A stretch of DNA of 39,305 nt, taken from sequence record MT682707.1, one strand, 5' to 3'. This DNA comes from Escherichia phage vB_EcoP_SP7. Under the pieces are notes generated by a model. The model was not told the origin of the DNA. It searched no databases and was given only the letters and a program-made list of their open reading frames with translations. Positions 1 through 38,465 of the stretch are shown one piece after another (position 1 is the first letter of the stretch; every line of letters begins with the position of its first letter). Made by a program: the position numbers and the translations under genes.

Positions 1-155
1 TGGTAACTTATGGTCTCTGCCAGCATCACGTCACCAACGCCCGGCTTATGGTCAAGACAGGGCAGTTAAACCATGATGCGACTATGCGTCACCTGAAAGC
101 GGTCTATGAGGGGCGCAAGCGCATACACGACAGCTTACACTCTGAGGACAAGTAA
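1..155 (+). CDS. Early ORF in the gene 0.4 position, 5' end wraps around the window junction (ATG = base 39305 + bases 1-2); about 51 aa
   Basis: Frame is open from base 3 to TAA at 153-155; the start codon is reconstituted across the junction and overlaps the gene 0.3 stop (TAG TGA|TGG). Same length as T7 gp0.4 but no clear sequence similarity. Confidence 0.4.
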   Translation, partial: VTYGLCQHHVTNARLMVKTGQLNHDATMRHLKAVYEGRKRIHDSLHSEDK

Positions 156-157
156 AC

Positions 158-283
158 ATGTATCAGATAACTTATAGCAGCGAACAGGCGTTCTATGATG
201 GGTGCTACGAGATGATGAAACGCGGGGCTTGCTACGTAGCTGATCACCATAACCTGACTATAACGCTGAAAGGCGGTTACTAA
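158..283 (+). CDS. Small early ORF (41 aa), hypothetical
   Basis: ATG at 158 immediately after the previous stop; tightly packed early-gene arrangement. Below the ORF-track length cutoff; no recognisable motif. Confidence 0.3.
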   Translation: MYQITYSSEQAFYDGCYEMMKRGACYVADHHNLTITLKGGY

Positions 284-289
284 CTGCGA

Positions 290-646
290 GTGATAGACGA
301 GAGGTCATCGACCGATAGGTGGCCTCAAAGATTACCACTTACATTGATAGGAGTTAACTATGAACATAGGTTACTGGGTATGCTTATCTCCGGTCATCTT
401 TCTGATAGCTTGGGGCCTTCTGGACGCAATAAAGCGAGGGTCATTCTAATGAGCTGGATACTTCTGGTTATCTTCGGCTATGGACTTATCGCCTACGTGC
501 TGATGAGAGACATCAATAAAGCGCGCAAAGTCTATAAATTCAACTATGTAAGTCTGGGGCGCTGGACTGTACGCCAACCTAATGGACGATTCACGCGTAA
601 CTTAGCGAACGTCTGGGATATAGCAACACTTGGGAGCAAACTGTAA
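290..646 (+). CDS. Early hypothetical protein with a hydrophobic segment (start uncertain; internal ATG at 449 gives a 65-aa membrane peptide)
   Basis: Track ORF starting at a GTG; internal ATG at 449 is preceded by GAGGG and encodes a transmembrane-like stretch (SWILLVIFGYGLIAYVLM). A separate 29-aa hydrophobic ORF (360..449) lies upstream in another frame. Confidence 0.35.
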   Translation: MIDERSSTDRWPQRLPLTLIGVNYEHRLLGMLISGHLSDSLGPSGRNKARVILMSWILLVIFGYGLIAYVLMRDINKARKVYKFNYVSLGRWTVRQPNGRFTRNLANVWDIATLGSKL

Positions 647-1038
647 TGAATATGTCAAATCTGGTACACGCAATGGGCTCAATCATATCGCTTCGCACAT
701 TCACTGATAAGAACGGCGTAGAGTGGAAGTACGTTGGCACGGACTCTCGAGGTCGCAACTACTGGGAGAAGACAGGGAGCAAGACCGCTTATGTACATCG
801 CCACTCGTCACACACCGCACGTCAACAGCAGGAGCGGGACAGTGTACTACAGGCACGACTCCGGGCAGAGGGCCATAAGTCTGAGCTGATGTATCTAGCG
901 TATGGTGGACGGCCAATCACCGACGATGGTAAACTTCTGGTCTCAGGCTGGAAGGCGATAGACCAACGGTCAACCATCAAGCACACTACCCATGGTGACT
1001 TCAGCCATCTACACGCTAACCCTCTGATATGCAAGTAA
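646..1038 (+). CDS. Early hypothetical protein (130 aa)
   Basis: ATG overlaps the upstream stop (TAATGA); sits where T7 has gene 0.6/0.7 but has no kinase motifs. Confidence 0.5.
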   Translation: MNMSNLVHAMGSIISLRTFTDKNGVEWKYVGTDSRGRNYWEKTGSKTAYVHRHSSHTARQQQERDSVLQARLRAEGHKSELMYLAYGGRPITDDGKLLVSGWKAIDQRSTIKHTTHGDFSHLHANPLICK

Positions 1039-1043
1039 TTATG

Positions 1044-1066
1044 ACTTAACTATCACTATAGGACTC
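1044..1066 (+). promoter_or_regulatory. Phage-RNAP promoter immediately upstream of the RNAP gene
   Basis: ACTTAACTATCACTATAGGACTC matches the consensus of the other ten promoters; predicted +1 G at 1061. Confidence 0.7.
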
Positions 1067-1135
1067 AAGGTCTAAGACTACAAGTGAAATACCAAAGAGA
1101 CTTTAAGTGAAAGACTAATAACAAGGACTTTAAGT

Positions 1136-3817
1136 ATGAGCGTCATCTCTATTGACAAACACGACTTCTCTGATGTGTCGAACGCCATTGAGCCGTTTAA
1201 CCTGCTGGCTGACCATTACGGGCAAGACCTTGCAGTTAAACAGCTTCAGCTTGAGCATGAGGCATACACTGAAGGCGAGCGACGTTTCATCAAAAACCTT
1301 GAGCGCCAGACTGAGCGCGGGGAATTGGCAGACAATCAGGTAGCCAAGCCTCTCATGCAGACTCTGGTCCCTAAGATTGCGCAAGCCGTCAAGGAGTGGC
1401 ACGAAGGCGCGGACGGGAAGCTGTCAACTTCTCGCCCTAGCGTAGCGTTCACCATGTTGAGCACTGAAGAGAAGGCCGTCAAGGACCGCTCTCTACGCAT
1501 ATCCTGTGAGTCTGCTGCGGTTATCATACTGAAGGTCATCCTCTCCAAGCTGGTCAAGCCTGAAGGGATACCGATTACACCGATGGCCTCCGCGATAGGT
1601 CGCACACTTGAGGATGAAATCCGCTTCGGTCGCATCCGTGACAAGGAGCAGGAGCACTTCAAGAAGGCGATAGCTGAGAACCTGAACAAGCGCGCCGGGG
1701 CATCCTACAAAAAAGCCTACATGCAAGCGGTTGAGACATCCATGCTGGAGCAAGGACAGCTTGAAGATGCGTGGGGGACTTGGAGTCCGACCGAGGCGGT
1801 ACACGTTGGCATCAAGATGCTTGAGATTGTCATCCAGTCTACGCAACTGGTCGAGCTTAAGCGTTATGGTGCTGGCAATGCAGCGGCTGACGTTGAGATG
1901 GTCCACCTGTCAGACTTCTGGGTCAAGAAGATGGCACAACGTGGATTCAGCCTTGCGGGTATCGCACCAGTCTATCAGCCTTGCGTAGTTCCACCTAAGC
2001 CGTGGACGGGTGTCGTAGGCGGTGGTTACTGGGCTAAAGGTCGCAGACCGTTACCATTGATTCGCTTAGGGTCTAAGTCTGCGGTAGCACGTTACGAAGA
2101 CGTGTACATGCCTGAAGTCTATGACGCTGTGAACATCATCCAGAATACACCTTGGAAAGTTAACAAGAAGGTACTGGACGTGGTGAACATGGTCGAGAAG
2201 CTGAACAACACGCCTATTGATGACATCCCTCAGATGGAACCACTGAAGCCTGAGGACTACGCGGGTGAGACCGAAGAGGACCTCAAGGCATGGAAGAAGG
2301 CTGCTGCTGGTATCTACCGCCGAGAGAAGGCCCGGCAGTCACGCAGATTGTCACTGAGCTTTATCGTTAACCAAGCGAACAAGTTCTCTCAGTTCAAGGC
2401 CATCTGGTTCCCGTACAACATGGACTGGCGCGGTCGCGTCTACGCTGTGCCGATGTTCAACCCTCAGGGTAACGACATGCAGAAGGGTCTCCTGACTCTG
2501 GCAGTCGGCAAGCCCATTGGTGCTGATGGTTTCAAATGGCTGAAGGTCCACGGTGCAAACTGTGCTGGTGTCGATAAAGTCACCTTCGAGGAGCGCATCA
2601 AGTGGGTGGAAGACAACCACGACAACATCATGGCTGCTGCTAAGGCACCGATGGATAGCATTGAGTGGTGGGGCAAGTTAGACTCTCCGTTCTGCTTCCT
2701 TGCGTTCTGCTTCGAGTATGCTGGCGTAATGCACCACGGCCTGTCTTACTCCTGCTCTCTGCCCATAGCGTTCGATGGGTCCTGCTCCGGTATTCAGCAC
2801 TTTAGTGCTATGCTTCGTGACCACATCGGCGGACATGCAGTAAACCTGACGCCTTCCGGTAAGGTCCAAGACATCTACCGCATCGTGTCTGACCGCATTG
2901 AGGAGGAGCTTAAAGTCCTGCTGGTTAATGGCACGGACAACGAGGTGGTCACTCACGAGGACAAGAAAACTGGTGAGATTACCGAACGTCTCAAGCTGGG
3001 TACACGAGAGTTGGCCCGTCAGTGGCTGACTTACGGTATGTCACGCAAGGTCACTAAGCGTTCAGTCATGACTCTGGCCTATGGGTCGAAAGAGTACGGC
3101 TTCGCAGACCAAGTTTACGAGGACATCGTAATGCCTGCGATTGACTCAGGGTCTGGCGCTATGTTCACCGAACCAAGCCAAGCGTCCCGCTTCATGGCTA
3201 AGATGATTTGGGAAGCCGTGAGTGTGACCGTGGTTGCTGCTGTTGACGCGATGAAGTGGCTTCAAGGTGCTGCCAAGCTGCTGGCTGCTGAAGTGAAGGA
3301 CAAAAAGACTGGAGAAATCCTGAAGCCTTGCCTTCCGGTACACTGGGTCACACCTGATGGTTTCCCGGTCTGGCAGGAATACCGCAAGAAGGATACCACT
3401 CGTCTGAATCTGATGTTCTTAGGGTCATTCAACCTTCAGCCTACCGTCAACAAAGGCACGAAGAAGGAGTTGGATAAGCACAAGCAGGAGTCAGGTATTA
3501 GCCCGAACTTCGTCCACTCACAAGATGGTAGCCACCTACGCAAGACTGTAGTCCACACTCACCGCAAGTATGGCGTGATGTCATTCGCAGTGATTCACGA
3601 TAGCTTCGGGACCATCCCGGCTGACGCTGAGTATCTGTTCCGTGGTGTCCGTGAGACGATGGTCGAGACCTACCGAGACAACGATGTGCTGCTTGACTTC
3701 TACGAGCAGTTTGAATACCAACTTCATGAGAGCCAACGCGACAAGCTGCCTGAGCTTCCGAAGAAAGGTAAACTGAATATCGAAGACATCTTGTCTTCAG
3801 ACTTTGCATTCGCTTAA
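1136..3817 (+). CDS. DNA-directed RNA polymerase, single-subunit T7 type (gene 1), 893 aa
   Basis: Collinear with recalled T7 RNAP along its length (e.g. FNLLADHYG, CVVPPKPWTG, FPYNMDWRGRVYAV, HGANCAGVDK, SPFCFLAFCFEYAGV, LPIAFDGSCSGIQHFSAMLRD, SFAVIHDSFGT, C-terminal SDFAFA). Confidence 0.98.
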   Translation: MSVISIDKHDFSDVSNAIEPFNLLADHYGQDLAVKQLQLEHEAYTEGERRFIKNLERQTERGELADNQVAKPLMQTLVPKIAQAVKEWHEGADGKLSTSRPSVAFTMLSTEEKAVKDRSLRISCESAAVIILKVILSKLVKPEGIPITPMASAIGRTLEDEIRFGRIRDKEQEHFKKAIAENLNKRAGASYKKAYMQAVETSMLEQGQLEDAWGTWSPTEAVHVGIKMLEIVIQSTQLVELKRYGAGNAAADVEMVHLSDFWVKKMAQRGFSLAGIAPVYQPCVVPPKPWTGVVGGGYWAKGRRPLPLIRLGSKSAVARYEDVYMPEVYDAVNIIQNTPWKVNKKVLDVVNMVEKLNNTPIDDIPQMEPLKPEDYAGETEEDLKAWKKAAAGIYRREKARQSRRLSLSFIVNQANKFSQFKAIWFPYNMDWRGRVYAVPMFNPQGNDMQKGLLTLAVGKPIGADGFKWLKVHGANCAGVDKVTFEERIKWVEDNHDNIMAAAKAPMDSIEWWGKLDSPFCFLAFCFEYAGVMHHGLSYSCSLPIAFDGSCSGIQHFSAMLRDHIGGHAVNLTPSGKVQDIYRIVSDRIEEELKVLLVNGTDNEVVTHEDKKTGEITERLKLGTRELARQWLTYGMSRKVTKRSVMTLAYGSKEYGFADQVYEDIVMPAIDSGSGAMFTEPSQASRFMAKMIWEAVSVTVVAAVDAMKWLQGAAKLLAAEVKDKKTGEILKPCLPVHWVTPDGFPVWQEYRKKDTTRLNLMFLGSFNLQPTVNKGTKKELDKHKQESGISPNFVHSQDGSHLRKTVVHTHRKYGVMSFAVIHDSFGTIPADAEYLFRGVRETMVETYRDNDVLLDFYEQFEYQLHESQRDKLPELPKKGKLNIEDILSSDFAFA

Positions 3818-3829
3818 CAGGAGAGAGTT

Positions 3830-4045
3830 ATGAAATTCGCACACAAGCAGACTGGCGTTAAGGGTGGGACTCAAATCGTGACCGTAACAGAACACAACGG
3901 CAAGGGTCTGGTGAAGACCACTGTCATTCCAACTAAGATGTCCAAGCAGCTTAACATCCCGTTCAAGACCCTTGTATATCTGGTCGAGTCCAGCCATGAG
4001 AAGTACCTGAAGGACGCAGTGTCTAAACTGGAGCAGACCAAATGA
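3830..4045 (+). CDS. Hypothetical protein (71 aa), no T7 counterpart at this position
   Basis: ORF with RBS directly after gene 1; lies upstream of the promoter/RNase III pair that marks the gene 1.1 start in T7. Confidence 0.5.
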   Translation: MKFAHKQTGVKGGTQIVTVTEHNGKGLVKTTVIPTKMSKQLNIPFKTLVYLVESSHEKYLKDAVSKLEQTK

Positions 4046-4123
4046 CAGACCTACAGTTACTGGCCTTGTGGCTGGGAGCACTCGCAGTATTCACTTTAAT
4101 CCAACGCAGAAGAGGTTAACCCT

Positions 4124-4591
4124 ATGTTCGGTAAGTCAAAACTTAGAGCACAAATCAAAGAGTTGAGCATGAAGGTGGCATACTTGGAGCGAGCCGTAAT
4201 GGTCAGGGATAAAGACAACGAGAGACTGAAGGTTAAACTTGCTGAATCAGAGCGTAAGCGCCTAACGACACCAGCGGCTGTAACTGTCAAGCGTATGGTA
4301 GGCATCAAGTTCAAGGCACTTTTCAACGGTCTATACCAACCGACTGAGTTCAAGACCGGGCCGGGTAGCTGTGGGAAGAACGTTAAGCACTTCACCACAT
4401 CGAAGACTGAACGCACCATTACCATCCACCAACACCACGTAGACGGGTCTCAGAAAGACTTTGAGTACCGACTGAGCGACATAGACGGTCGCATCCAGTA
4501 TGACTACGAGCTGGTTCGGCTCTACGGCGAGGAGGAAGAGCAGGAACGTATAGTCCAAGCCTTCCGCAACATACCACGATTCATGCCCTAA
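4124..4591 (+). CDS. Hypothetical protein (155 aa) with predicted N-terminal coiled coil
   Basis: ORF with GAGG RBS; N-terminal heptad-like charged region (KELSMKVAYLERAVMVRDKDNERLKVKLAESERKRL). No recognised homolog. Confidence 0.55.
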   Translation: MFGKSKLRAQIKELSMKVAYLERAVMVRDKDNERLKVKLAESERKRLTTPAAVTVKRMVGIKFKALFNGLYQPTEFKTGPGSCGKNVKHFTTSKTERTITIHQHHVDGSQKDFEYRLSDIDGRIQYDYELVRLYGEEEEQERIVQAFRNIPRFMP

Positions 4592-4609
4592 ACTATCACT
4601 ATAGGATTA
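4587..4609 (+). promoter_or_regulatory. Phage-RNAP promoter (phi1.1 position)
   Basis: CTAAACTATCACTATAGGATTAG; +1 at 4604. Confidence 0.8.
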
Positions 4610-4650
4610 GACTCAAGGTCATGACTCAAAGTCGTGGCCTTCATGATTAA
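4609..4650 (+). promoter_or_regulatory. RNase III processing site (R1.1-like)
   Basis: AGACTCAAGGTCA...GTGGCCTTCATGATTAA; the same conserved element recurs at 11899 and 34856 and resembles the recalled T7 R0.5 site GACTCAAGGTCGC..GAGTGGCCTTTATGATT. Confidence 0.7.
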
Positions 4651-4679
4651 CCCTAACTCATTCAATCAGGAGCTACACC

Positions 4680-4859
4680 ATGTATCAGAACACTATCAAC
4701 TTCGAGCGCATCCGTGAACGTCAGCAGACTGAAGGTTACATTCCTAAGGGTCGCAAGCTGAACAAGACCAAACGTGGCGGTGGTGTCAAGGGTGCTTTCC
4801 GTAATGCTGAAGGTAAAGACTCTCTGGTTAACCAAGAGAAGTATTTCGTAGGAGCATAA
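4680..4859 (+). CDS. gp1.1-like small basic protein (59 aa)
   Basis: Contains KGRKLNKTKR, matching the recalled T7 gp1.1 motif; sits directly after promoter plus RNase III site as in T7. Confidence 0.6.
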   Translation: MYQNTINFERIRERQQTEGYIPKGRKLNKTKRGGGVKGAFRNAEGKDSLVNQEKYFVGA

Positions 4860-4863
4860 CCAA

Positions 4864-5127
4864 ATGGGCCGACTTTATAGTGGCAACCTCAACGCTTTCA
4901 AAGCAGCGTGTAACAGGCTCTATCAGTTAGACTTCGCTGTCATATCTCAAGAGTTTCAAGACCATGTGTCACGCCAAGAGTGCATGAAACTCAGGGTGGA
5001 GGACCGAGCTGGTAACATCTTCGCGCTTGAGACCTTCGCACACCACGATGAAGACGTACTGTACAACACTGCAACAGACTTCCTTAATGGTCTCGCTGAC
5101 CACCTCGACACATGGAGCAAATCATAA
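4864..5127 (+). CDS. gp1.2-like inhibitor of host dGTP triphosphohydrolase
   Basis: MGRLYSGNLNAFKAA..QLDFAVI..RVEDRAGN..HHDEDVLYN closely matches recalled T7 gp1.2. Confidence 0.85.
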   Translation: MGRLYSGNLNAFKAACNRLYQLDFAVISQEFQDHVSRQECMKLRVEDRAGNIFALETFAHHDEDVLYNTATDFLNGLADHLDTWSKS

Positions 5128-6233
5128 TGACTACGACTATTAAAACTAACCCGCACCGCGCTGTAGATTACTCTGAGTCCGGCGTTAAGAAAGCACTGGA
5201 AGCTGCCGGGTCACTGGAAGCTGAGGTGAAGTATGACGGTGTGCGCCTGAATCTCCCGGTCTTCCCGACAGGCGAGACCCAGTGGTTGAGCCGAGAGTCC
5301 AAGCCGCTTCCAGCCCTTGAATGGCTATCTGTCCTGACCAGCCTCGACAATATCGTGGAAGACCAGCAGCGCGCTAGCGACTGGCGGTGGTTCCTGAAGC
5401 AAGCTGGCTATGAGGGGACTGGCCTGATGGTTGATGGCGAGGTCATGGTGAAAGGGGTAGACTTCAACACATCCTCAGGTCTCATCCGAACGAAGTGGGT
5501 AAAGCAAAAGAACTTTGAGTTTTCAACTGGTGAGCACTGGGGTAAGAACTGGAAGAAAGAGAATCTACCGTTCTGTCTTGACAGGAAGCACATCAAGGTG
5601 GTCGTCTATGGTATCATCGACCTTAACGTCATCCTCGACCCGAAAGCCGAAGGTCCTATCCATAGCGTCACACGCCTGAAGGCCGAAGCTATCGTCCCTC
5701 TACTTCAGAAATACTTCCCGGAAATCGACTGGGTTCTGTCTGAGTCACACACGGTCTATGACCTTGAGTCGCTCAACTCCCTGTACGAAGAGAAGCGTCT
5801 GGAAGGACACGAGGGTCTGGTAGTCAAAGACCCACTTGGTAAATACAAGCGTGGTAAGAAGTCAGGCATGTGGAAAATGAAGCCTGAGGAGACAATTGAC
5901 GGGACCGTGTGTGGACTCGTGTGGGGGACTCAGGGTAAGGCCAACGAAGGCAAGGTCATTGGTTTTGAGGTTCTCTTGGAGGATGGCATGGTGGTTAACG
6001 CCTGTGGCCTGACTGAGGATCAGAAGGACGAGTTCACGGCAGAAGTATTTAACCGCAATGGGATTGACTCCCAGCGCGAGTACGAGGAATTGCTTTGTAT
6101 TGAGACTTTCAACCCTTACGGCGGGTGGCAGTGCGAGGTCCTCTTCATGGAGCGCTTCCCAGATGGTTCCTTACGTCACCCTAGCTTCAAGTGCTGGCGC
6201 GGGACGGAAGACAACCCTACCATTAAGAGCTAA
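5127..6233 (+). CDS. ATP-dependent DNA ligase (gene 1.3)
   Basis: IKTNP N-terminus, adenylation motif EVKYDGVR, and LMVDGEVMVKGVDFNTSSGLIRTKW match recalled T7 ligase. ATG at 5127 overlaps the gene 1.2 stop (track start 5112 is less likely). Confidence 0.95.
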   Translation: MTTTIKTNPHRAVDYSESGVKKALEAAGSLEAEVKYDGVRLNLPVFPTGETQWLSRESKPLPALEWLSVLTSLDNIVEDQQRASDWRWFLKQAGYEGTGLMVDGEVMVKGVDFNTSSGLIRTKWVKQKNFEFSTGEHWGKNWKKENLPFCLDRKHIKVVVYGIIDLNVILDPKAEGPIHSVTRLKAEAIVPLLQKYFPEIDWVLSESHTVYDLESLNSLYEEKRLEGHEGLVVKDPLGKYKRGKKSGMWKMKPEETIDGTVCGLVWGTQGKANEGKVIGFEVLLEDGMVVNACGLTEDQKDEFTAEVFNRNGIDSQREYEELLCIETFNPYGGWQCEVLFMERFPDGSLRHPSFKCWRGTEDNPTIKS

Positions 6234-6243
6234 CTAAATGTCA

Positions 6244-6276
6244 ACCCAGTGGTCTTAGGACTGCTGGGTCTTTTCA
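6244..6276 (+). terminator. Rho-independent terminator, probable early terminator TE
   Basis: CCCAGTGGTC-TTAG-GACTGCTGGG stem-loop (10 bp including G-U pairs) followed by TCTTTTC; same position after ligase as T7 TE. Confidence 0.6.
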
Positions 6277-6294
6277 CATCTGGAGGTTTACCAA

Positions 6295-6507
6295 ATGTCT
6301 AAGACCAAATTGTTTATCGGACAGTGGGACGTATGGGCGGTGACTGATGGCGTCGTTAGAGTCTGCCCTAAGTATCGCTTTATACTTGGCTACTATGAGT
6401 GGCGTGACGCCTACAGGACTGTATCGTCCCTTGAGGCAGACGAAGGGGTGAAGACCTTAGAGGTCAACAACTTCACTGAGAAGTCCGACCCTAAACTATC
6501 ACTGTAG
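6295..6507 (+). CDS. Hypothetical protein (70 aa), gene 1.4-1.6 region
   Basis: ORF with RBS (GGAGG) after the terminator. Confidence 0.5.
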   Translation: MSKTKLFIGQWDVWAVTDGVVRVCPKYRFILGYYEWRDAYRTVSSLEADEGVKTLEVNNFTEKSDPKLSL

Positions 6508-6512
6508 GACCA
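6490..6512 (+). promoter_or_regulatory. Phage-RNAP promoter, variant core CACTGTAGG
   Basis: CCTAAACTATCACTGTAGGACCA; A to G at -3 relative to consensus. Confidence 0.6.
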
Positions 6513-6546
6513 ACGTCGAGTTCATCAACTCAAAGGAGTAAACACT

Positions 6547-6807
6547 ATGTCTAAGAACTTAATGTTCAACCGTTATTCCAATACCTTCCACCTGTCCCAC
6601 AACCCGTTCGCTTGCATTAAGCGTAACGAGAAGCTGGGATACTTCGGGAAGGCCGTTAAGCTGTCACCTACAGTCTACGCGCTGATTACTCCGGGCAAAG
6701 CTGAAGAGGCTCGCCAGAAGCGTGAGACCAACGTACCTGTGGTCTACACTAAGTGGCCTCGCGTCCGTCTGTTCGTTGAGTTCGTGAAGGAGGTGGTAAA
6801 TGATTAA
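6547..6807 (+). CDS. Hypothetical protein (86 aa)
   Basis: ORF with AAAGGAG RBS. Confidence 0.5.
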   Translation: MSKNLMFNRYSNTFHLSHNPFACIKRNEKLGYFGKAVKLSPTVYALITPGKAEEARQKRETNVPVVYTKWPRVRLFVEFVKEVVND

Positions 6808-7249
6808 CCATAAACCAACTGCTGCCCAAGAACTTCTGGCACTTAACTTTAACGTAAGAGACGAAGCTAGCTGCGGTAAGGGGATAATCTGCAAGGGACT
6901 ATCATGTGATCGATGTCCAATGGTAGGTCAGTTGTCAGGTGATGGAGAGTACAAGACCCTTCGTGACTTACGGGCCTCTGTTGGAACAGTGGGAACGTGC
7001 AGCGAAGACGATGGTGTACGCAAGCCTCCCCACTATCAGGTCTTTGACGGTGTGGAATCCATTGAGGTTATCGCTAGGTCTATGACTGTCAGCGAGTTCC
7101 GTGGTTTCTGCATGGGTAACGTCCTGAAGTATCGACTACGAGCTGGTAAGAAGTCAGAGCTGGCGACTATGGAGAAGGACCTGAACAAAGCAGCCTTCTA
7201 TCAGGAGCTGTTCGACCTACATAAAGGTAAGTGCTATGCTGCCGAGTGA
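6800..7249 (+). CDS. Hypothetical Cys-rich protein (149 aa), possibly DUF3310-like C-terminus
   Basis: Cys cluster CGKGIICKGLSCDRCP; C-terminal GNVLKYRLRAGKK resembles the recalled DUF3310 signature (low certainty). Confidence 0.5.
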   Translation: MINHKPTAAQELLALNFNVRDEASCGKGIICKGLSCDRCPMVGQLSGDGEYKTLRDLRASVGTVGTCSEDDGVRKPPHYQVFDGVESIEVIARSMTVSEFRGFCMGNVLKYRLRAGKKSELATMEKDLNKAAFYQELFDLHKGKCYAAE

Positions 7250-7326
7250 GTGGTGCCGGGAGATGTACGAGAAGACTCTCAACCCGGACTACATTACGCT
7301 ATACAACCAATGGAAGGAGCGCGGTT

Positions 7327-7486
7327 TATGACTGAGGTTGAGAAGAAATACATCGTGGAGCTTGAGGGTCGCGTTCAGTCCTTCGAGGTTCCGGTGTACG
7401 CAAAGTCTCTTGAAGAGGCTACCATGAAGTCCCAAGAGTATGAGGACGCTGGGTTTGTGGTCGGACGGATTCGTCCTGAGACCTAA
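7327..7486 (+). CDS. gp2-like inhibitor of host RNA polymerase
   Basis: [14 protein letters not shown]...[10 protein letters not shown] matches recalled T7 gp2 (SFEVPIYAETLDEA...AGFEVTRVRP). AAGGAG sits 8 nt upstream of ATG 7327; the track's 7250 start is a GTG with no RBS. Confidence 0.75.
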
Positions 7487-7504
7487 ACTATCACTGTAGG
7501 ACAG
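7482..7504 (+). promoter_or_regulatory. Phage-RNAP promoter (phi2.5 position), variant core CACTGTAGG
   Basis: CCTAAACTATCACTGTAGGACAG. Confidence 0.6.
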
Positions 7505-7543
7505 ACGTCCAGTTCGTAACTTTAAAATAGGAGATTTACACCA

Positions 7544-8242
7544 ATGGCTAAAGAGCAACTGAAGACTTTCACCACTCCGGTAGCTGGTATCGTTGAGCCT
7601 TACGCATGGCTAAACAAAGCAGACACCAAGTTCAACGAGCGTGGTGAACACAAAGTCAACCTGACATTCGACCTGAACAACACGAAGGTCCGTAAGATGA
7701 TTGATGTCTTACAGAAGATTCATGACGATGCCTATGCGAAAGCACTCGCAGACCACGAGAAGAACCCACCTCAGGTTCAGCGTGGTAAGAAGCCTATTGA
7801 ACCACGAGAAGGCGACATGCCGTGGATTGAGAATGGTGACGGTACTGTTACCCTGAAGTTTAAGTGCTTCGCGTCTTACCTGAAGGATGGTAAGTCAGAG
7901 CCTATCGTATTACGGTTCTACGACACCGATGCTAAACTCATCCGTGACGTCCCGAATATTGGCGCTGGGTCTAAGCTGAAGGTCAAGTTCAAAGTCCTGC
8001 CGTTCAAGTGGAACGCTGCGACTGGTGCAAGCGTTAAGCTCCAGCTTGAGTCCTGCCTTCTGGTAGAACTGAAGGAGTGGAAAGGTGATGGTGCTGGTGG
8101 TGATGGTGGCTGGGGTGATGATGAAGACCTTGGTACTGGCTACAAAGCGTCAACAGATGGTGACTTCGGGTCTGATGACTTCGGTGATGATGGCTCCGAA
8201 GGTGGTGATGACTCCAGCTCTGGTGGCGATTACGACTTCTAA
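7544..8242 (+). CDS. Single-stranded DNA-binding protein (gene 2.5), 232 aa
   Basis: Same length as T7 gp2.5; conserved NPP..RGKKP, GDMP, ENGDGT, KLKVKFKV..KWNAATGASVKLQLES and the acidic C-terminal tail ending in F. Confidence 0.95.
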   Translation: MAKEQLKTFTTPVAGIVEPYAWLNKADTKFNERGEHKVNLTFDLNNTKVRKMIDVLQKIHDDAYAKALADHEKNPPQVQRGKKPIEPREGDMPWIENGDGTVTLKFKCFASYLKDGKSEPIVLRFYDTDAKLIRDVPNIGAGSKLKVKFKVLPFKWNAATGASVKLQLESCLLVELKEWKGDGAGGDGGWGDDEDLGTGYKASTDGDFGSDDFGDDGSEGGDDSSSGGDYDF

Positions 8243-8694: not shown

Positions 8695-9185
8695 TGGGCA
8701 AGAAGTTTAAACTGTTAGAAGATAAGTGTGGCTGGTCTCGTGGGACTATCGTTACCAAGTGTGAGAATGATCCCGAACCCGATTCAGGAATGACCCTAGT
8801 TGAGTGCCAGACTCCAGGAGCATACAAACATGGGTCTAACGGCCGCAATACTCAGCCTGAGGGTATGTGGGGAGCATGGGTCCCTAATTACGAACTTGAG
8901 GAAATCAAACCAGAAGGGGAACTCACTGGAGTGCAGACCACTCAAGTCCTGCCAGCTTCTAGCGTACCACCTTTGACTGTGAAGCGTGAAGTCCTGACCA
9001 TCGACAAGATTGGTGTAGGCCAGACGTTCATCGTCCACGGCAAGCCTGACGAAGTTTACGTGAAGATTAGCAACTCACACGTCTTCAACCATAAGCGTCT
9101 CCAGATGCACACCACGGACGCACAACGCTTCACCCAGCACCTGAATCTAGTGGTCGTAGAATTGGTGGTGTACAATGGTAAGTAA
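8694..9185 (+). CDS. Hypothetical protein (163 aa) inserted between endonuclease I and lysozyme
   Basis: ATG overlaps the gene 3 stop, with AAGGAG RBS; no T7 counterpart (genes 3 and 3.5 are adjacent in T7). Confidence 0.55.
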   Translation: MGKKFKLLEDKCGWSRGTIVTKCENDPEPDSGMTLVECQTPGAYKHGSNGRNTQPEGMWGAWVPNYELEEIKPEGELTGVQTTQVLPASSVPPLTVKREVLTIDKIGVGQTFIVHGKPDEVYVKISNSHVFNHKRLQMHTTDAQRFTQHLNLVVVELVVYNGK

Positions 9186-9633
9186 GGTGCAATTCAACCA
9201 ACGGTCCCGGACTGACGCTATCTTCGTTCACTGTTCGGCTACCAAGCCAGAGATGGACATCGGGGTAGAGACCATCCGTATGTGGCACAAGCAGCAAGGC
9301 TGGCTGGACGTAGGCTACCACTTTATCATCAAGCGAGACGGTACTGTGGAAGAGGGTCGACCGGTCAATGTCGTAGGGTCACATGTTAAGGACTGGAACT
9401 CACGGTCTGTAGGCGTCTGCCTTGTAGGTGGAATCAACGCTAAGGGTCAGTTTGAAGCTAACTTCACTCCAGCCCAGATGAACTCCCTGCGCAACAAGCT
9501 GGCTGACCTGAAGTCCATGTATCCTCAGGCAGAAATCAAAGCACACCATGACGTAGCACCTAAGGCGTGTCCAAGTTTCGACTTGCAACGCTGGCTGTCT
9601 ACCAATGAACTGGTCACTTCCGACCGTGGATAA
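9175..9633 (+). CDS. Lysozyme, N-acetylmuramoyl-L-alanine amidase and RNAP inhibitor (gene 3.5)
   Basis: VQFNQRSRTDAIFVHCSATKP...WLDVGYHFIIKRDGTVEEGR...APKACPSFDL...NELVTSDRG is nearly collinear with recalled T7 lysozyme. Confidence 0.95.
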   Translation: MVSKVQFNQRSRTDAIFVHCSATKPEMDIGVETIRMWHKQQGWLDVGYHFIIKRDGTVEEGRPVNVVGSHVKDWNSRSVGVCLVGGINAKGQFEANFTPAQMNSLRNKLADLKSMYPQAEIKAHHDVAPKACPSFDLQRWLSTNELVTSDRG

Positions 9634-16367: not shown

Positions 16368-16390
16368 ACTAAACTATCACTATAGGGACT
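16368..16390 (+). promoter_or_regulatory. Phage-RNAP promoter (phi6.5 position)
   Basis: CACTAAACTATCACTATAGGGACT; +1 at 16385. Confidence 0.85.
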
Positions 16391-17627: not shown

Positions 17628-19196
17628 ATGGCTGAACGTGAAGGGTTCGCTGCTGAAGGAGCCAAAGCGGTCTATGACCGACTGAAGAACGGTAGACAGC
17701 CATATGAGACACGCGCTCAGAACTGTGCTGCTGTCACTATCCCGTCACTGTTTCCTAAGGAGTCCGACAACTCGTCCACTGAGTACACAACTCCGTGGCA
17801 AGCTGTAGGTGCTCGCTGCTTGAACAACTTGGCGGCAAAGCTGATGTTGGCGTTATTCCCTCAGTCACCGTGGATGCGACTAACAGTCTCAGAATATGAG
17901 GCCAAGACCTTGAGTCAGGACTCAGAGGCTGCTGCTCGTGTTGACGAGGGGCTTGCTATGGTCGAGCGTGTGTTGATGGCATACATGGAGACAAACAGTT
18001 TCCGTGTGCCATTGTTCGAAGCTCTGAAGCAGCTTATAGTCTCCGGTAACTGTCTGCTCTACATTCCAGAGCCTGAACAGGGAACCTACAGTCCTATGCG
18101 AATGTACCGCTTAGTGTCCTATGTTGTTCAACGTGATGCTTTCGGTAACATCTTACAGATTGTGACTCTCGACAAGGTAGCGTTTAGTGCTCTACCGGAA
18201 GACGTGAAGTCTCAACTAAACGCAGATGACTATGAGCCTGACACAGAGCTGGAAGTGTATACGCACATTTACCGTCAGGACGACGAGTATCTGCGCTACG
18301 AGGAAGTGGAAGGAATTGAGGTAGCAGGGACCGATGGTTCTTACCCACTGACTGCCTGTCCATACATCCCGGTACGAATGGTTCGACTGGACGGTGAAGA
18401 CTATGGTCGCTCTTATTGCGAGGAGTATCTGGGAGACCTGAACTCGCTGGAGACGATTACAGAAGCTATCACCAAAATGGCTAAGGTAGCCTCCAAGGTG
18501 GTTGGCCTCGTTAACCCGAACGGTATCACGCAACCTCGTCGTCTGAATAAGGCGGCTACAGGTGAGTTCGTGGCTGGTCGCGTCGAGGACATCAACTTCC
18601 TGCAACTGACGAAAGGTCAGGACTTTACGATTGCCAAGTCGGTGGCTGACGCTATCGAGCAACGTTTAGGATGGGCCTTCCTTCTTAATAGTGCCGTTCA
18701 GCGTAATGCCGAGCGAGTCACTGCTGAAGAGATTCGTTATGTTGCCGGCGAACTGGAGGCGACCTTAGGTGGTGTGTACTCAGTACAATCCCAAGAGCTT
18801 CAGTTACCTATCGTCCGTGTGCTGATGAACCAACTTCAGTCTGCTGGCATGATTCCTGACCTTCCGAAAGAAGCGGTAGAGCCTACTGTCTCCACTGGTC
18901 TGGAAGCGTTAGGTCGTGGTCAAGACTTGGAGAAGCTAACTCAGGCAGTCAACATGATGACCGGTCTTCAGCAGCTCTCTCAGGACCCAGACATTAACTT
19001 GCCGACCCTGAAGCTTCGACTGCTGAATGCATTAGGTATTGACACAGCTGGTTTGCTACTGACTCAGGATGAGAAGATTCAGCGCATGGCTGAGCAGTCG
19101 TCTCAACAGGCAGTTGTCCAAGGCGCTAGTGCTGCTGGTGCTAACATGGGTGCTGCTGTAGGTCAGGGAGCTGGTGAGGACATGGCTCAAGCCTAA
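17628..19196 (+). CDS. Portal (head-tail connector) protein (gene 8)
   Basis: Collinear with recalled T7 gp8 (GAKAVYDRLKNGRQPYETRAQNCA, PWQAVGARCLNNLAAKLMLALFP, YRLVSYVVQRDAFGN, VRMVRLDGEDYGRSY, VTAEEIRYVAGELEATLGGVYS). Confidence 0.97.
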   Translation: MAEREGFAAEGAKAVYDRLKNGRQPYETRAQNCAAVTIPSLFPKESDNSSTEYTTPWQAVGARCLNNLAAKLMLALFPQSPWMRLTVSEYEAKTLSQDSEAAARVDEGLAMVERVLMAYMETNSFRVPLFEALKQLIVSGNCLLYIPEPEQGTYSPMRMYRLVSYVVQRDAFGNILQIVTLDKVAFSALPEDVKSQLNADDYEPDTELEVYTHIYRQDDEYLRYEEVEGIEVAGTDGSYPLTACPYIPVRMVRLDGEDYGRSYCEEYLGDLNSLETITEAITKMAKVASKVVGLVNPNGITQPRRLNKAATGEFVAGRVEDINFLQLTKGQDFTIAKSVADAIEQRLGWAFLLNSAVQRNAERVTAEEIRYVAGELEATLGGVYSVQSQELQLPIVRVLMNQLQSAGMIPDLPKEAVEPTVSTGLEALGRGQDLEKLTQAVNMMTGLQQLSQDPDINLPTLKLRLLNALGIDTAGLLLTQDEKIQRMAEQSSQQAVVQGASAAGANMGAAVGQGAGEDMAQA

Positions 19197-19214
19197 ACTA
19201 TCACTATAGGAACA
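19192..19214 (+). promoter_or_regulatory. Phage-RNAP promoter (phi9 position)
   Basis: CCTAAACTATCACTATAGGAACA; +1 at 19209. Confidence 0.85.
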
Positions 19215-20189: not shown

Positions 20190-20212
20190 GACTAAACTAT
20201 CACTATAGGGAG
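20190..20212 (+). promoter_or_regulatory. Phage-RNAP promoter (phi10 position), strong class III type
   Basis: ACTAAACTATCACTATAGGGAGA; the transcript starts with a GGGAGACC...GGTTTCCC 5' stem-loop like the T7 gene 10 leader. Confidence 0.9.
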
Positions 20213-20315
20213 ACCAAGAGACAGACTCAAGGTTTCCCTATTACTTCAGTCCATACGGATTGGGCGTACAGTAAGTAATAAACTTTATCTTTCAATTGAA
20301 TAGGAGAATTATCAT

Positions 20316-24738: not shown

Positions 24739-24761
24739 CCTTAACTATCACTATAGGGACT
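24739..24761 (+). promoter_or_regulatory. Phage-RNAP promoter (phi13 position)
   Basis: CCTTAACTATCACTATAGGGACT; +1 at 24756. Confidence 0.85.
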
Positions 24762-31100: not shown

Positions 31101-32019
31101 TAGTCTGACTGGCAGTAAGCGTCGGTTCGATGACCGCTGGCTGAAGACCGCTGGTATCTCTGACGAGCAGTGGAAGGGCATTAAGTCCCTAATCCGTGAG
31201 TCAGTGACTCGTGGTCCAGACGGGAAGTACACCATCAAGGATAAGAAGGCGTTCAGTCAGGACCCAAGGGCTATGGACTTATGGCGTATGGGTGACACCA
31301 TCGCTGATGAAACGTTACTACGTCCTCATAAGCTGTCCAACATGGATGCAAAGGCTTATGGTCCTCTCGCTAAGACTGTCCTTCAGTTTAAGAACTTCGT
31401 CATCAAGTCCATCAATGGGCGTACCATGCGAACCTTCTATAACGCCACGAAGAACAACCGAGCGATGGATGCTGCTCTGTCCACTGTGATGTCTATGGGC
31501 CTTGCTGGTATCTACTACATGGCTCAGGCACACATCAAGGCTTACGCTATGCAGGATGGTCGTGACCGTGACTACCTCAAGCAAGCTCTTGACCCGACGA
31601 TGATTGGTTACGCGGCTCTGTCCCGTAGCTCACACTTGGGTGGGCCACTTGGGGTAGCTAACATTCTGGGTGGCATCGCTGGGTATGAGGACACCAAGAT
31701 GCTCCGTTCGTCTATACTACCTCGTTCGCCTACAGAGAAGCCTGAACGTGCCATCTCGTATGGTGCAGCTACAAGTGACCCTGTGATGAATGTCGTCGGT
31801 AACTTCTTGGAGCAGGTTCCAGCTTTCGGATATGCTGCTAACGTTGGCGCTTCGGCTTACAACTTGGCTGGCTACCTCAAGGCGGATACTCGGGTAAACG
31901 AGAGAGACTACATGACCGGGATGTATAACACCTTCCGTGAACTGGTTCCGAACGACCCACTTACTCAGAAGTTGCTACTGGGAACGTTTGAGGAGCAAGG
32001 TATCCACATCAAGGACTAA
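28132..32019 (+). CDS. Internal virion protein D (gene 16) with a non-T7 N-terminal domain
   Basis: Residues after about 250 are collinear with recalled T7 gp16 (RLEARETARN, DLVRSPTGMQSGASGK, FLEARNLFDSD, RRVNGDIAIM, FFAKNAYMG.QN.TEI.GM, WTK.LNGTTNYLLDA, DPTMI..AALSRSS, ELVPNDPLTQ). The first ~130 aa (GIRNNNPGNIR...) differ from the T7 SLT-type lytic transglycosylase module. Confidence 0.95.
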   Translation: MATRGIRNNNPGNIRVSKDQWEGMTGDDGAFVIFDSPESGVRALGKNLLSYGRQGYDSIEKIINRWAPPNENDTQAYIDSVVAATGIPATQSLDLSNPDTLSSLAQAISFHETGSRYNPEVYQKGVARALNGISPKTPPVSANVVDALTEGLKAKPKVALGENLPTAAGLNIEGQAPEAPNESFGEMFYKATGETMQERDDRSTWFGFGAATEAEVKNSMVGVAIRAGQTEDSLDVIGDVFNPTRWNNHKWTREELDQIRNAGVLPQYYGVITGGSPQNLTELINLALENQKLDQEKAKAGIGAQLAAGVIGAGVDPLTYVPIAGQVGKGGKLVNKMFTVAAQSGALAGVSEMARTSVAGGDAHVAEAILGGALFGGGMTAIADGLGRALGRNTNEFAGPATRLEARETARNVDGQDLSRLPIQEGEQTFSHQGVKFADVQNEPGSVRLEDGSILIGENPLNPKTRQVFDEVIEPERAAAGVNLGGLTEIGLKLLRSENPEIRGVAADLVRSPTGMQSGASGKIGTTASDVFERLRAVDHRFYNDIDDAVTEALKDPYFQTAFWRDSGAFRQDIYQRVSMAIEDVSGNLKAELTPGELKVYDLLKNQFDAKREMMENPAMFGRPDAKSIFPGSRFKGTYVPHVYSNQMKELYIKELGSPEALQEAIKKSWLTSYASRPEVKKRVDEALLEADPTLTPDGLAAAVYKYANDKAYGISHTEQFERSSVMEENINGLVGLENNSFLEARNLFDSDMSIVLPNGHTFSVNNLREWDMDKIVPAYNRRVNGDIAIMAGTGKTTKEMKDLVETMMNKAGDDGKLKGEVSTLRDTLKILTGRARRDGADDAAFATVMRTMTDLSFFAKNAYMGVQNLTEIGGMLARGNVRALLHGVPMFRDLAFRNKKVGASEIKDLHNVIFGKELDDSIRPSKQDVIDRLRSYSDLGRGAATALGTAKYYTGELAVRSPFTKVLNGTTNYLLDAGRQGFLSDIVEHSLTGSKRRFDDRWLKTAGISDEQWKGIKSLIRESVTRGPDGKYTIKDKKAFSQDPRAMDLWRMGDTIADETLLRPHKLSNMDAKAYGPLAKTVLQFKNFVIKSINGRTMRTFYNATKNNRAMDAALSTVMSMGLAGIYYMAQAHIKAYAMQDGRDRDYLKQALDPTMIGYAALSRSSHLGGPLGVANILGGIAGYEDTKMLRSSILPRSPTEKPERAISYGAATSDPVMNVVGNFLEQVPAFGYAANVGASAYNLAGYLKADTRVNERDYMTGMYNTFRELVPNDPLTQKLLLGTFEEQGIHIKD

Positions 32020-32037
32020 ACTATCACTATAGGAAAC
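32015..32037 (+). promoter_or_regulatory. Phage-RNAP promoter (phi17 position)
   Basis: ACTAAACTATCACTATAGGAAAC; +1 at 32032, followed by a GGAGAC/GTCTCC hairpin at 32038..32059. Confidence 0.85.
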
Positions 32038-37419: not shown

Positions 37420-37442
37420 ACTTAACTATCACTATAGGGAAG
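37420..37442 (+). promoter_or_regulatory. Phage-RNAP promoter (phiOR position)
   Basis: ACTTAACTATCACTATAGGGAAG; +1 at 37437. Confidence 0.85.
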
Positions 37443-38277: not shown

Positions 38278-38436
38278 ATCGACCATCGGTAATGCCGCTA
38301 CCTACAGTCAGAGACCTACAGTTAATAGACACAAAGGATATAGACTTAATGTCTAAGACATGTTAGTCAAAGATTATATCCTCTTACACCATGGGGGGCC
38401 GATGCTAGCTCAATCAATATTATTTCAAATTACCTA

Positions 38437-38465
38437 TTGACTATAGGTATCGACTATGGCTTAAT
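38437..38465 (+). promoter_or_regulatory. Candidate sigma70 early promoter (A1-like)
   Basis: TTGACT, 17-nt spacer, CTTAAT; the spacer contains CTATAGG as the T7 A1 spacer does. Confidence 0.45.

What the first reader, a model, noticed from the sequence alone, without database searches (positions are those of the whole stretch)
1044..1066. Phage-RNAP promoter directly upstream of the RNAP gene (possible positive feedback)
A consensus-quality phage promoter sits about 75 nt upstream of the gene 1 start. To my knowledge T7 has no such promoter, its gene 1 being transcribed only by host RNAP from the early promoters. If functional, this would let the phage RNAP amplify its own transcription.
Basis: partly seen in the sequence, partly recalled or inferred. 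Interest (0 to 1): 0.5.

Follow-up and report, generated by a model that had tools for sequence, protein, structure and literature searches.

The report
Phage promoter before its polymerase gene
A K1F-type phage carries a genuine promoter for its own RNA polymerase directly in front of that polymerase's gene, so the enzyme can very probably transcribe its own gene; the site is conserved and already annotated in related phage genomes, so it is real but not new.

Summary
Window 1044-1066 (ACTTAACTATCACTATAGGACTC, +1 = G1061) is one of ten same-strand copies of the genome's phage-RNAP promoter. It lies in the 97-nt gap between gp0.38 and gene 1, 75 nt before the ATG. A weight matrix built from the other nine sites scores it 31.7 bits; the best non-promoter position scores 13.5.

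The window is a circularly permuted Kayfunavirus (K1F-like) genome. All 27 relatives examined keep the site, K1F included. The site also tracks polymerase specificity. Cronobacter phage GW1 (RNAP D748/R756) has ACCCTC there, and Citrobacter phage CR8 (genus Caroctavirus) has GGTACA there. Each matches its own genome's other promoters.

The lineage lacks the left-end promoter phiOL. About 50 T7-, T3-, K11- and Berlin-like loci show the opposite pattern: phiOL is present and no phage promoter lies within about 600 nt of gene 1.

The most likely mechanism is that host RNAP starts gene 1 expression and the phage RNAP then transcribes its own gene, restrained by lysozyme. This is inferred, not shown.

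It is not new. GenBank EcoDS1 (2008) and CR8 (2014) already annotate the site, and the same feedback idea was published for phage LUZ100.

The parts
1044..1066 (+). Phage-RNAP promoter, positions -17 to +6 (ACTTAACTATCACTATAGGACTC). Identical to the 'promoter phi' annotated at 2244-2266 of EcoDS1 and to K1F 2474-2496.
1061..1061 (+). Predicted transcription start (+1 G; initial sequence GGACTC, as in the middle-gene promoters at 4604, 6507 and 7499, which start GGA(T/C)).
   Evidence: position inferred from the T7-group promoter architecture
1067..1135 (+). Leader of 69 nt after +6. It is 31.9% GC (lowest 0.05% of 75-nt windows in a 50% GC genome) and has no significant RNA structure. It contains two ACTTTAAG copies (1100, 1127) and the Shine-Dalgarno AAGGA at 1123-1127.
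1136..3817 (+). Gene 1, single-subunit RNA polymerase, 893 aa. Specificity-loop residues are N748 and N756 in T7 numbering.
646..1038 (+). Upstream early gene (gp0.38 homologue). Its stop codon lies 6 nt before the promoter.
38433..38770 (+). Region of the host (sigma-70) early promoters that must start gene 1 expression. Placed by homology to the three promoters annotated in EcoDS1 (469-505, 609-647, 764-800). One of them was found by the consensus scan at 38578-38606 (TTGACA-17-TAGTAT).
4587..4609 (+). Cognate promoter copy (next one downstream of gene 1).
6490..6512 (+). Cognate promoter copy.
7482..7504 (+). Cognate promoter copy.
16368..16390 (+). Cognate promoter copy.
19192..19214 (+). 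Cognate promoter copy.
20191..20213 (+). Cognate promoter copy (GGGAGA start, before the capsid gene).
24739..24761 (+). Cognate promoter copy.
32015..32037 (+). Cognate promoter copy.
37420..37442 (+). Cognate promoter copy (phiOR equivalent). Its -17..-1 sequence is identical to that of the gene 1 site.
9178..9630 (+). Homologue of T7 gp3.5 lysozyme (69% identity over all 151 aa). Presumed brake on the phage RNAP, by analogy with T7.
   Evidence: the role is inferred from T7
7340..7477 (+). Homologue of T7 gp2, the inhibitor of host RNAP. After it acts, only phage-RNAP promoters can sustain gene 1 transcription.
   Evidence: the role is inferred from T7

Best explanation
1044-1066 is a functional, middle-class (class II-like) promoter for the phage's own single-subunit RNA polymerase. 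It sits in the intergenic gap immediately before the polymerase gene.

Proposed sequence of events:
- Early in infection, host RNAP starts at the sigma-70 promoters near the physical left end (about 38.4-38.8 kb in the window, 1.7-2.0 kb upstream). It reads through the small early genes into gene 1. (Inferred from homology and the T7 paradigm.)
- The first RNAP molecules then recognise this promoter and start at G1061. They produce an mRNA with a 75-nt AT-rich, unstructured leader, followed by gene 1 and the downstream middle genes.
- Gene 1 is therefore both an early gene and a self-transcribed middle gene. This is a positive feedback that raises RNAP synthesis and keeps it going after gp2 has inhibited the host enzyme.
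- The loop is presumably limited by the gp3.5 lysozyme homologue and by competition from the late promoters.

In this lineage the site is the only phage promoter left of gene 1. It takes the place that phiOL occupies in T7-, T3-, K11- and Berlin-like phages.

Shown here: sequence match, position, conservation, co-variation with RNAP specificity, and absence of a terminator or a sigma-70 signal. Inferred: initiation at G1061, the feedback itself and its restraint.
For: - Match to the genome's own promoters: 31.7 bits with the site left out of the model, within 2.2 bits of the nine other sites and 18 bits above any non-promoter position. Same strand as all genes and wholly intergenic.
- Cognate enzyme: the window RNAP is 99.0% identical to K1F RNAP. 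K1F RNAP with the PK1F promoter works as an orthogonal expression pair in vivo. The K1F specificity loop grafted into T7 RNAP activates a promoter carrying the K1F -12..-7 consensus.
- Conservation: 27 of 27 relatives (25 distinct sequences) keep a promoter at the same place, while the leader just downstream has indels and substitutions. In 20 IMG/VR contigs the promoter-plus-leader string occurs exactly once per contig.
- Co-variation: GW1 has RNAP D748/R756 (window: N748/N756). All 11 of its other promoters read ACCCTC at -12..-7, and its gene 1 site equals that consensus exactly. CR8 (another genus, RNAP 79% identical) has AAGGAAGGTACACTATAGG; a motif trained only on four downstream sites finds one site about 90 nt before gene 1.
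- Cross-scoring: each gene 1 site scores 30-35 bits with its own genome's model and -2 to 19.5 bits with models of another specificity class.
- No terminator-like site and no sigma-70-like site on the + strand between 1 and 1136, so initiation here must transcribe gene 1.
- gp2 and lysozyme homologues are present.
- Independent annotators marked the homologous site as a phage promoter in EcoDS1 and CR8.
- Precedent: in LUZ100 a mapped phage-specific start site directly upstream of the RNAP gene led its authors to propose the same feedback.
Against: - There are no transcript, run-off or mutant data for this site in any K1F-like phage. I found none in the searchable literature.
- The initial transcribed sequence GGACTC departs from the GGGAGA of the strongest promoter, so the site may be weak.
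- In the Ro45lw clade the site carries -2 T>A, unlike every other promoter of those genomes. This could mean selection for reduced strength.
- T7's phiOL, which also lies upstream of gene 1, is regarded as only weakly used. A promoter upstream of gene 1 therefore need not contribute much to RNAP synthesis.
- Conservation proves selection for recognition by the RNAP, not which consequence of that recognition is selected.
Confidence: 0.7

Rival explanations
1. The site is a functional phage promoter, but its selected role is not RNAP amplification. It would be the lineage's substitute for phiOL. Together with the AT-rich stretch that follows, it would serve as an origin of DNA replication, as a T7 promoter plus an AT-rich region does at the T7 primary and secondary origins (from my own knowledge). 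Alternatively it would serve as the first place where the fast phage RNAP can engage the entering genome. Self-transcription of gene 1 would then be a by-product.
For: - The 69 nt after the promoter are 31.9% GC, in the lowest 0.05% of windows in the genome. Low GC is kept in GW1, Ro45lw, K1F and CR8 (32-35%).
- phiOL is absent from the window, K1F, EcoDS1, PE3-1, Ro45lw and CR8, while roughly 50 other Studiervirinae loci have phiOL and no gene-1-proximal site (annotated).
- The promoter just after gene 1, where T7 has its primary origin, is single and followed by 46% GC sequence.
- phiOL has been linked to RNAP-mediated genome entry.
Against: - AT-rich leaders also follow other promoters (16385: 33%; 20208 region: 30%). 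They contain the ribosome-binding region, so low GC may simply serve translation.
- The site lies about 2.3 kb from the physical left end. That is probably beyond the stretch that enters without transcription, and it can only be used after gene 1 has already been transcribed and translated. This limits any gain for genome entry.
- No origin assay exists.
Confidence: 0.2
2. It is a promoter for the host sigma-70 RNA polymerase, as the PE3-1 GenBank record labels the homologous 23 bp. This would be analogous to the minor E. coli promoter C that T7 and 13a have in the same intergenic gap.
For: - PE3-1 annotation 'host RNAP promoter' at 2874-2896.
- T7 and 13a have host promoter C, and Yepe2 a potential host promoter, just before gene 1.
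Against: - No sigma-70-like hexamer pair is found on the + strand anywhere in 1..7600.
- The annotated 23 bp are exactly the -17..+6 span of a phage promoter and identical to the site EcoDS1 labels 'phi'.
- The site changes together with the phage RNAP's specificity in GW1 and CR8. A host promoter would not do so.
Confidence: 0.02
3. It is a chance or decaying copy of the promoter with no function, for example a remnant of recombination between promoter-flanked modules.
For: Promoters are short and repeated, and can mark module boundaries in T7-like genomes (general knowledge).
Against: - Expected 0.00 chance matches.
- Full-strength score.
- Retained in 27 of 27 relatives and in a second genus, and re-tuned twice to new RNAP specificities.
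Confidence: 0.02

Closest known systems
'promoter phi' at 2244-2266 of Escherichia phage EcoDS1 (GenBank EU734172), and the same site in K1F (2474-2496)
   Same: The 23-bp sequence is identical. It holds the same position between gp0.38 and gene 1, with the same 75-nt distance to the ATG.
   Different: Nothing of substance; the window is another Kayfunavirus isolate. The record gives only the label, with no functional comment.
'predicted promoter' at 3356-3378 of Citrobacter phage CR8 (genus Caroctavirus, HG818824)
   Same: It has the same gene context (gp0.38, promoter, gene 1), an AT-rich leader, and no phiOL.
   Different: The promoter specificity differs (AAGGAAGGTACACTATAGG), as does the RNAP specificity loop. 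The leader is 87 nt, and the genome carries a 0.7 gene.
phi1 of Pseudomonas phage LUZ100 (PMC10134795)
   Same: It is a phage-specific promoter directly upstream of the RNAP gene. Its authors propose that host RNAP read-through starts expression and the RNAP then amplifies its own transcription.
   Different: The LUZ100 start site was mapped by ONT-cappable-seq, whereas here nothing is mapped. LUZ100 is a distant, putatively temperate T7-like phage, and its promoter is proposed to be repressed by a MarR-like protein. I looked for no such regulator here; the early genes between the host promoters and gene 1 are small and mostly annotated as hypothetical proteins in relatives.
T7 phiOL (nt 405) and its equivalents in 13a, K11 and Yepe2
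   Same: It is the only phage-RNAP promoter to the left of gene 1, and transcripts from it would run through gene 1.
   Different: phiOL lies between the terminal repeat and the host promoters, 1.5-2.8 kb before gene 1 in the four annotated records. It is considered weak and has been linked to genome entry. The present site abuts gene 1.
E. coli promoter C of T7 (nt 3113) and of 13a
   Same: It occupies the same intergenic gap immediately before gene 1, giving gene 1 a dedicated proximal promoter.
   Different: It is recognised by host RNAP, not by the phage enzyme, so there is no feedback.
Engineered T7 autogene (Dubendorff and Studier 1991; cited from my own knowledge, not retrieved)
   Same: The polymerase gene is placed under its own cognate promoter, giving self-amplifying expression.
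   Different: It is a laboratory construct, reported as difficult to maintain. Here the arrangement is natural and sits in a lytic genome that also encodes the lysozyme inhibitor.

Membership tests
T7-group single-subunit RNAP promoter, K1F specificity class | About 23 bp (-17 to +6) matching the consensus of the genome's other promoters, including the -12..-7 specificity region (ACTATC) and the CACTATAGG core | tested here: met
   31.7 bits with a leave-one-out matrix; the other nine sites score 33.9-38.4; the best non-promoter position scores 13.5
T7-group single-subunit RNAP promoter, K1F specificity class | Co-directional with the genes and located between genes or at gene ends | tested here: met
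   + strand, in the gap 1039-1135 between ORF 646..1038 and gene 1
T7-group single-subunit RNAP promoter, K1F specificity class | A cognate RNAP with the matching specificity loop is encoded in the same genome | tested here: met
   Gene 1 is 99.0% identical to K1F RNAP, and the loop is identical to K1F's. K1F RNAP and loop activity on K1F-type promoters has been shown experimentally
T7-group single-subunit RNAP promoter, K1F specificity class | The site changes together with RNAP specificity in relatives | tested here: met
   GW1 (D748/R756, ACCCTC) and CR8 (GGTACA); own-model scores are 30-35 bits against -2 to 19.5 for models of another specificity class
T7-group single-subunit RNAP promoter, K1F specificity class | Initiation by the phage RNAP at +1, in vitro or in vivo | not testable with these tools
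   No transcript data; no published mapping was found
Self-transcribed polymerase gene (autogene-type positive feedback, as proposed for LUZ100) | Cognate promoter upstream of the polymerase gene with no terminator in between | tested here: met
   75 nt apart; no terminator-like site in 1..1136 on the + strand; no stable structure in the leader
Self-transcribed polymerase gene (autogene-type positive feedback, as proposed for LUZ100) | An independent route for the first round of expression (host promoters reading into the gene) | tested here: met
   The three host promoters annotated in EcoDS1 map to about 38433-38770. One is found by the scan at 38578-38606, and no terminator-like site lies on the way
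Self-transcribed polymerase gene (autogene-type positive feedback, as proposed for LUZ100) | Gene 1 mRNA or RNAP level depends on active RNAP and on the promoter | not testable with these tools
   Needs promoter-down mutants or rifampicin time courses
phiOL-type left-end promoter / promoter-dependent replication origin | Located between the left terminal repeat and the host early promoters | tested here: not met
   The site lies about 2.3 kb from the inferred left end (about 38020), downstream of the host promoters and of the early genes
phiOL-type left-end promoter / promoter-dependent replication origin | Promoter followed by an AT-rich region | tested here: met
   31.9% GC over 1067-1135, in the lowest 0.05% of windows; not unique to this promoter
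phiOL-type left-end promoter / promoter-dependent replication origin | Origin activity | not testable with these tools
   Needs a replication assay
Host sigma-70 promoter (PE3-1 label; T7 promoter C position) | -35 and -10 hexamers with 16-18 nt spacing | tested here: not met
   No + strand match in 1..7600

The most novel reading that the evidence does not exclude
In the K1F/CR8 lineage, phiOL has been lost and replaced by a promoter abutting gene 1. The polymerase gene would then be a natural autogene. Its self-amplification would set the timing and sharpness of the early-to-middle switch. In this genome that role would be all the greater because it lacks the gp0.7 host shut-off kinase. Possibly the same promoter plus its AT-rich leader also acts as the replication origin. 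The complementary distribution (phiOL or a gene-1-proximal promoter, never both, in the genomes sampled) would then reflect two alternative solutions to one requirement.
Probability: 0.2. Interest if true: 0.45.

Novelty: already known. Interest (0 to 1): 0.22.

Why it matters
If the loop operates, these phages control the amount of their key enzyme differently from the T7 textbook scheme. Polymerase supply would no longer depend only on a short window of host transcription. That could affect how fast the phage takes over, how it copes with hosts whose RNAP is poorly recruited, and how it should be modelled or engineered. K1F-type RNAP/promoter pairs are already used as orthogonal expression parts.

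The comparative pattern found here is a small addition to what the database annotations already say. The site follows three different polymerase specificities, and it alternates with phiOL across genera. The pattern gives a clean, cheap experiment: intergenic point mutations. It does not open a new kind of mechanism.

Tried and rejected
- RNA structure or an RNase III-type hairpin between the promoter and gene 1, as at T7 R1. Folding 1061-1160 and 1000-1140 gave z-scores of +0.84 and +1.14, no better than shuffles. Rfam found nothing in 600-1600 at E <= 1.
- Host promoter reading (the PE3-1 label). Rejected on the sigma-70 scan and on co-variation.
- phiOL hidden in the window. A weight-matrix scan of the whole left arm found nothing above 6.6 bits apart from the site itself, and the same held in K1F, EcoDS1, PE3-1 and Ro45lw.
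- The original K1F genome paper and the Chen and Schneider promoter paper could not be read. I cannot say whether they discuss this site.
- The Temme 2012 and Segall-Shapiro 2014 main texts do not print the PK1F sequence. The statement that it carries ACTATC at -12..-7 rests on the paper's description of swapping in the subfamily consensus, and on my memory.
- A first de novo motif survey was led astray in several K1F-like loci by the left-end ACCTACAGTC repeats. A second, with 9-mer seeds, was led astray by coding repeats. Those loci were re-done with a core-anchored search.
- Sites 0.6-1.4 kb upstream of gene 1 in a few T3-, T7- and K11-like contigs (L094, L099, L092, L087, L119). I read these as phiOL in genomes with short early regions, or as weak sites before gene 0.7. 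None is adjacent to gene 1.

Full report
**What the window is.** The first 4 kb match about 160 phage records over at least 80% of their length. The best matches are about 94% identical: Escherichia phages P762, PE3-1 and EcoDS1, Klebsiella phage SEA1f and others, all of the genus Kayfunavirus (K1F-like, subfamily Studiervirinae). Homology to the ends of EcoDS1 places the physical left end near window position 38020, so the window is a complete genome written in a circularly permuted form. ORF 1136..3817 encodes an 893-aa single-subunit RNA polymerase. It is 99.0% identical to K1F RNAP and 63.8% to T7 RNAP, and ends in the canonical FAFA.

**The observation.** Positions 1044-1066 read ACTTAACTATCACTATAGGACTC.
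- With T7-group numbering this is -17 to +6, with +1 at G1061, 75 nt before the ATG.
- The site starts 6 nt after the stop codon of the upstream gene (646..1038, a gp0.38 homologue) and lies wholly in the 97-nt intergenic gap.
- Ten sites share (A/C)CT(A/T)AACTATCACT(A/G)TAGG, all on the + strand.
- A 23-column weight matrix built from the other nine sites gives the candidate 31.7 bits. The nine training sites score 33.9-38.4. The next position scores 25.4 (9945-9967, probably a weak eleventh promoter), then 13.5. The mean over both strands is -38 with sd 10.
- Shuffled sequence gives no match to the 23-mer at up to 3 mismatches.

**Is it a working promoter? Comparative evidence.**
- I aligned the 260 nt upstream of gene 1 from the window, 21 IMG/VR contigs and the GenBank genomes of PE3-1, EcoDS1, K1F, GW1 and Ro45lw. 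That is 27 sequences, 25 of them distinct.
- Every one has a promoter at the same place. The leader just downstream shows indels and many substitutions. K1F and EcoDS1 have the identical 23-mer.
- The substitutions that do occur in the site are informative. In Cronobacter phage GW1 and its IMG/VR twin the site reads ATTAAACCCTCACTATAGGACTC. All 11 other promoters of GW1 have ACCCTC at -12..-7 instead of ACTATC, and the gene 1 site equals their consensus exactly.
- The GW1 polymerase differs from the window's at the two classical specificity-loop positions. It has D748 and R756 (T7 numbering) where the window and K1F have N748 and N756. From my own knowledge, D at 748 together with ACCCTC is the T3 solution.
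- Citrobacter phage CR8 belongs to a different genus (Caroctavirus; RNAP 79% identical, with a different loop). It uses a third promoter type, AAGGAAGGTACACTATAGG. A motif trained only on four sites downstream of gene 1 finds exactly one upstream site, about 90 nt before gene 1.
- In a cross-scoring matrix, each genome's gene 1 site scores 30-35 bits with its own genome's model (site left out). It scores -2 to 19.5 bits with models of another specificity class.

A site that is re-tuned each time the polymerase changes its specificity is under selection to be recognised by that polymerase. This is the strongest evidence available without an experiment.

**Recognition of this promoter class by this enzyme class is established experimentally.**
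- Native K1F RNAP with a PK1F promoter is used as an orthogonal expression and mutagenesis system.
- The K1F specificity loop grafted into T7 RNAP activates a T7 promoter whose -12..-7 region was replaced by the K1F-subfamily consensus.
- The particular copy in front of gene 1 has not, as far as I could find, been tested.

**Surroundings.**
- No sigma-70-like promoter and no intrinsic-terminator-like site lies on the + strand between position 1 and gene 1.
- The three host promoters annotated in EcoDS1 map to about 38433-38770 of the window, and one is picked up by the scan at 38578-38606.
- Host RNAP can therefore read from the left end through the small early genes into gene 1, as in T7. Any phage-RNAP initiation at 1061 must also transcribe gene 1.
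- The leader RNA has no significant structure (z = +0.84 and +1.14) and no Rfam match. There is no sign of an RNase III site like T7's R1.
- The 69 nt after +6 are 31.9% GC in a 50% GC genome, in the lowest 0.05% of 75-nt windows. This is conserved in GW1, Ro45lw, K1F and CR8. Similar AT-rich stretches follow the promoters at 16385 and 20208.
- The genome encodes homologues of T7 gp2 (host RNAP inhibitor) and gp3.5 lysozyme (69% identical; the T7 protein inhibits T7 RNAP). It has no detectable gp0.7.

**How it compares with other T7-group phages.**
- In T7 the same intergenic gap holds the minor E. coli promoter C (nt 3113). The only T7-RNAP promoter left of gene 1 is phiOL at nt 405, with no T7 terminator annotated before Tphi.
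- Records annotated in the same style as EcoDS1 and numbered alongside it (13a, K11, Yepe2) likewise show phiOL near the left end and no phage promoter before gene 1. 13a has host promoter C and Yepe2 a 'potential host RNAP promoter' there.
- EcoDS1 shows the reverse: no phiOL, and 'promoter phi' immediately before gene 1.
- I widened this with 80 IMG/VR loci found with an RNAP alignment. For each locus I derived the promoter core from sites downstream of gene 1 and listed the upstream sites.
- In about 50 T7-, T3-, K11- and Berlin-like loci with a recognisable promoter core, the nearest upstream site is 0.6-4 kb before gene 1, mostly 2-3.4 kb. None lies within 600 nt.
- In 19 of 19 evaluable K1F-like loci, and in CR8, the site is 75-90 nt before gene 1.
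- A weight-matrix scan of the whole left arm finds no second site in the window, K1F, EcoDS1, PE3-1 or Ro45lw; the best other score is 10 bits.
- So every sampled genome has a phage promoter somewhere to the left of gene 1. The K1F/CR8 lineage is particular in where it lies.

**Most likely mechanism.**
- Host RNAP starts gene 1 expression. The new polymerase then also starts at G1061 and transcribes its own gene. This continues after gp2 has inhibited the host enzyme, which amounts to a positive feedback.
- The start sequence GGACTC resembles the middle-gene promoters (GGATTA, GGACCA, GGACAG) rather than the capsid promoter (GGGAGA). I therefore expect a class II-like promoter of moderate strength.
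- By analogy with T7, such promoters are the ones most sensitive to lysozyme, which would close the loop negatively. These last steps are inference.
- In the Ro45lw clade the site alone carries -2 T>A. From my own knowledge, T3 promoters have A at -2 and T7 RNAP tolerates it. I therefore read this as a tuned rather than a dead site, but it may indicate selection on strength.

**Rivals.**
- The main rival keeps the promoter but assigns another selected role: a substitute for phiOL acting as a promoter-plus-AT-rich replication origin, or as the first entry point for the fast polymerase. The AT-rich leader and the phiOL alternation fit this. phiOL has been linked to RNAP-mediated genome entry and is considered weakly used.
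- Against that rival: AT-rich leaders are not unique to this site, and the site is about 2.3 kb from the left end, usable only after gene 1 has been expressed. I give this rival about 0.2.
- The host-promoter reading (the PE3-1 label) and the chance or relic reading are each contradicted by the sigma-70 scan and by the co-variation.

**Novelty.**
- The site is annotated as a phage promoter in EcoDS1 (2008 record) and in CR8 (2014 record).
- A 2026 paper on the Kayfunavirus phage Sparklingdew lists eight CTWAACTATCACTATAGG repeats, one of them at the end of the gene preceding the RNAP gene, and calls them promoters.
- The feedback idea has been published for the mapped phi1 promoter of LUZ100. 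From my own knowledge, it is also the principle of the engineered T7 autogene.
- The feature is therefore already known. This analysis adds the co-variation across three specificity classes and the alternation with phiOL.

**Verdict.** This is a real, conserved and almost certainly functional phage promoter that makes gene 1 self-transcribed. The feature is ordinary for this lineage and already annotated, so interest is low (0.22).

Noticed in passing
window 9945-9967: CCTAAACTATCACCTTAGGGATG is a near-consensus promoter variant (25.4 bits; CACCTTAGG instead of CACTATAGG). It lies 60 nt before the gene 4 (primase/helicase) homologue and is probably a weak eleventh promoter.
   Followed up: partly
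window 16368-16469: The real promoter at 16368-16390 is followed at once by a degenerate promoter-like copy (16397-16419, 13.5 bits) and a 30% GC stretch (16400-16469). This tandem promoter plus AT-rich layout is reminiscent of the T7 primary origin.
   Followed up: no
window 38223-38323: An array of ACCTACAGTC repeats at about 15-nt spacing lies just inside the inferred left terminal repeat. The same repeat is annotated in CR8 and dominates the left ends of many K1F-like contigs.
   Followed up: partly
window about 38020: The window is circularly permuted. The physical left end and terminal repeat map here by homology to EcoDS1 1-218.
   Followed up: partly
window early region (38770-39305 and 1-1135): No homologue of the T7 gp0.7 kinase/host shut-off gene was detected, although GW1 and CR8 carry one. 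The early gene content is variable within the lineage.
   Followed up: partly
L001 (PE3-1, KJ748011) record positions 2874-2896: The GenBank record labels the homologous 23 bp 'host RNAP promoter'. The sequence is identical to the phage promoter and has no sigma-70 signal, so this is probably a mis-annotation.
   Followed up: yes
L016-L021 and L025 (Ro45lw clade), about 80 nt before gene 1: In this clade the gene 1 promoter alone has A at -2 (CACTAAAGG, as in T3 promoters). All other promoters of the same genomes keep T or have -3 G. This may be a strength-tuning change.
   Followed up: partly
window 33100-34900: A cluster of very low-GC 70-nt windows (29-33% GC) lies in the region between the promoter at 32015 and the gene 19 homologue, probably the tail-fibre/receptor-binding gene. 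This suggests a horizontally acquired module.
   Followed up: no
L094 9370 (T3-like IMG/VR contig of 36 kb): A T3-type promoter lies only about 630 nt before gene 1, because almost the whole early region is missing between phiOR, phiOL and gene 1.
   Followed up: partly
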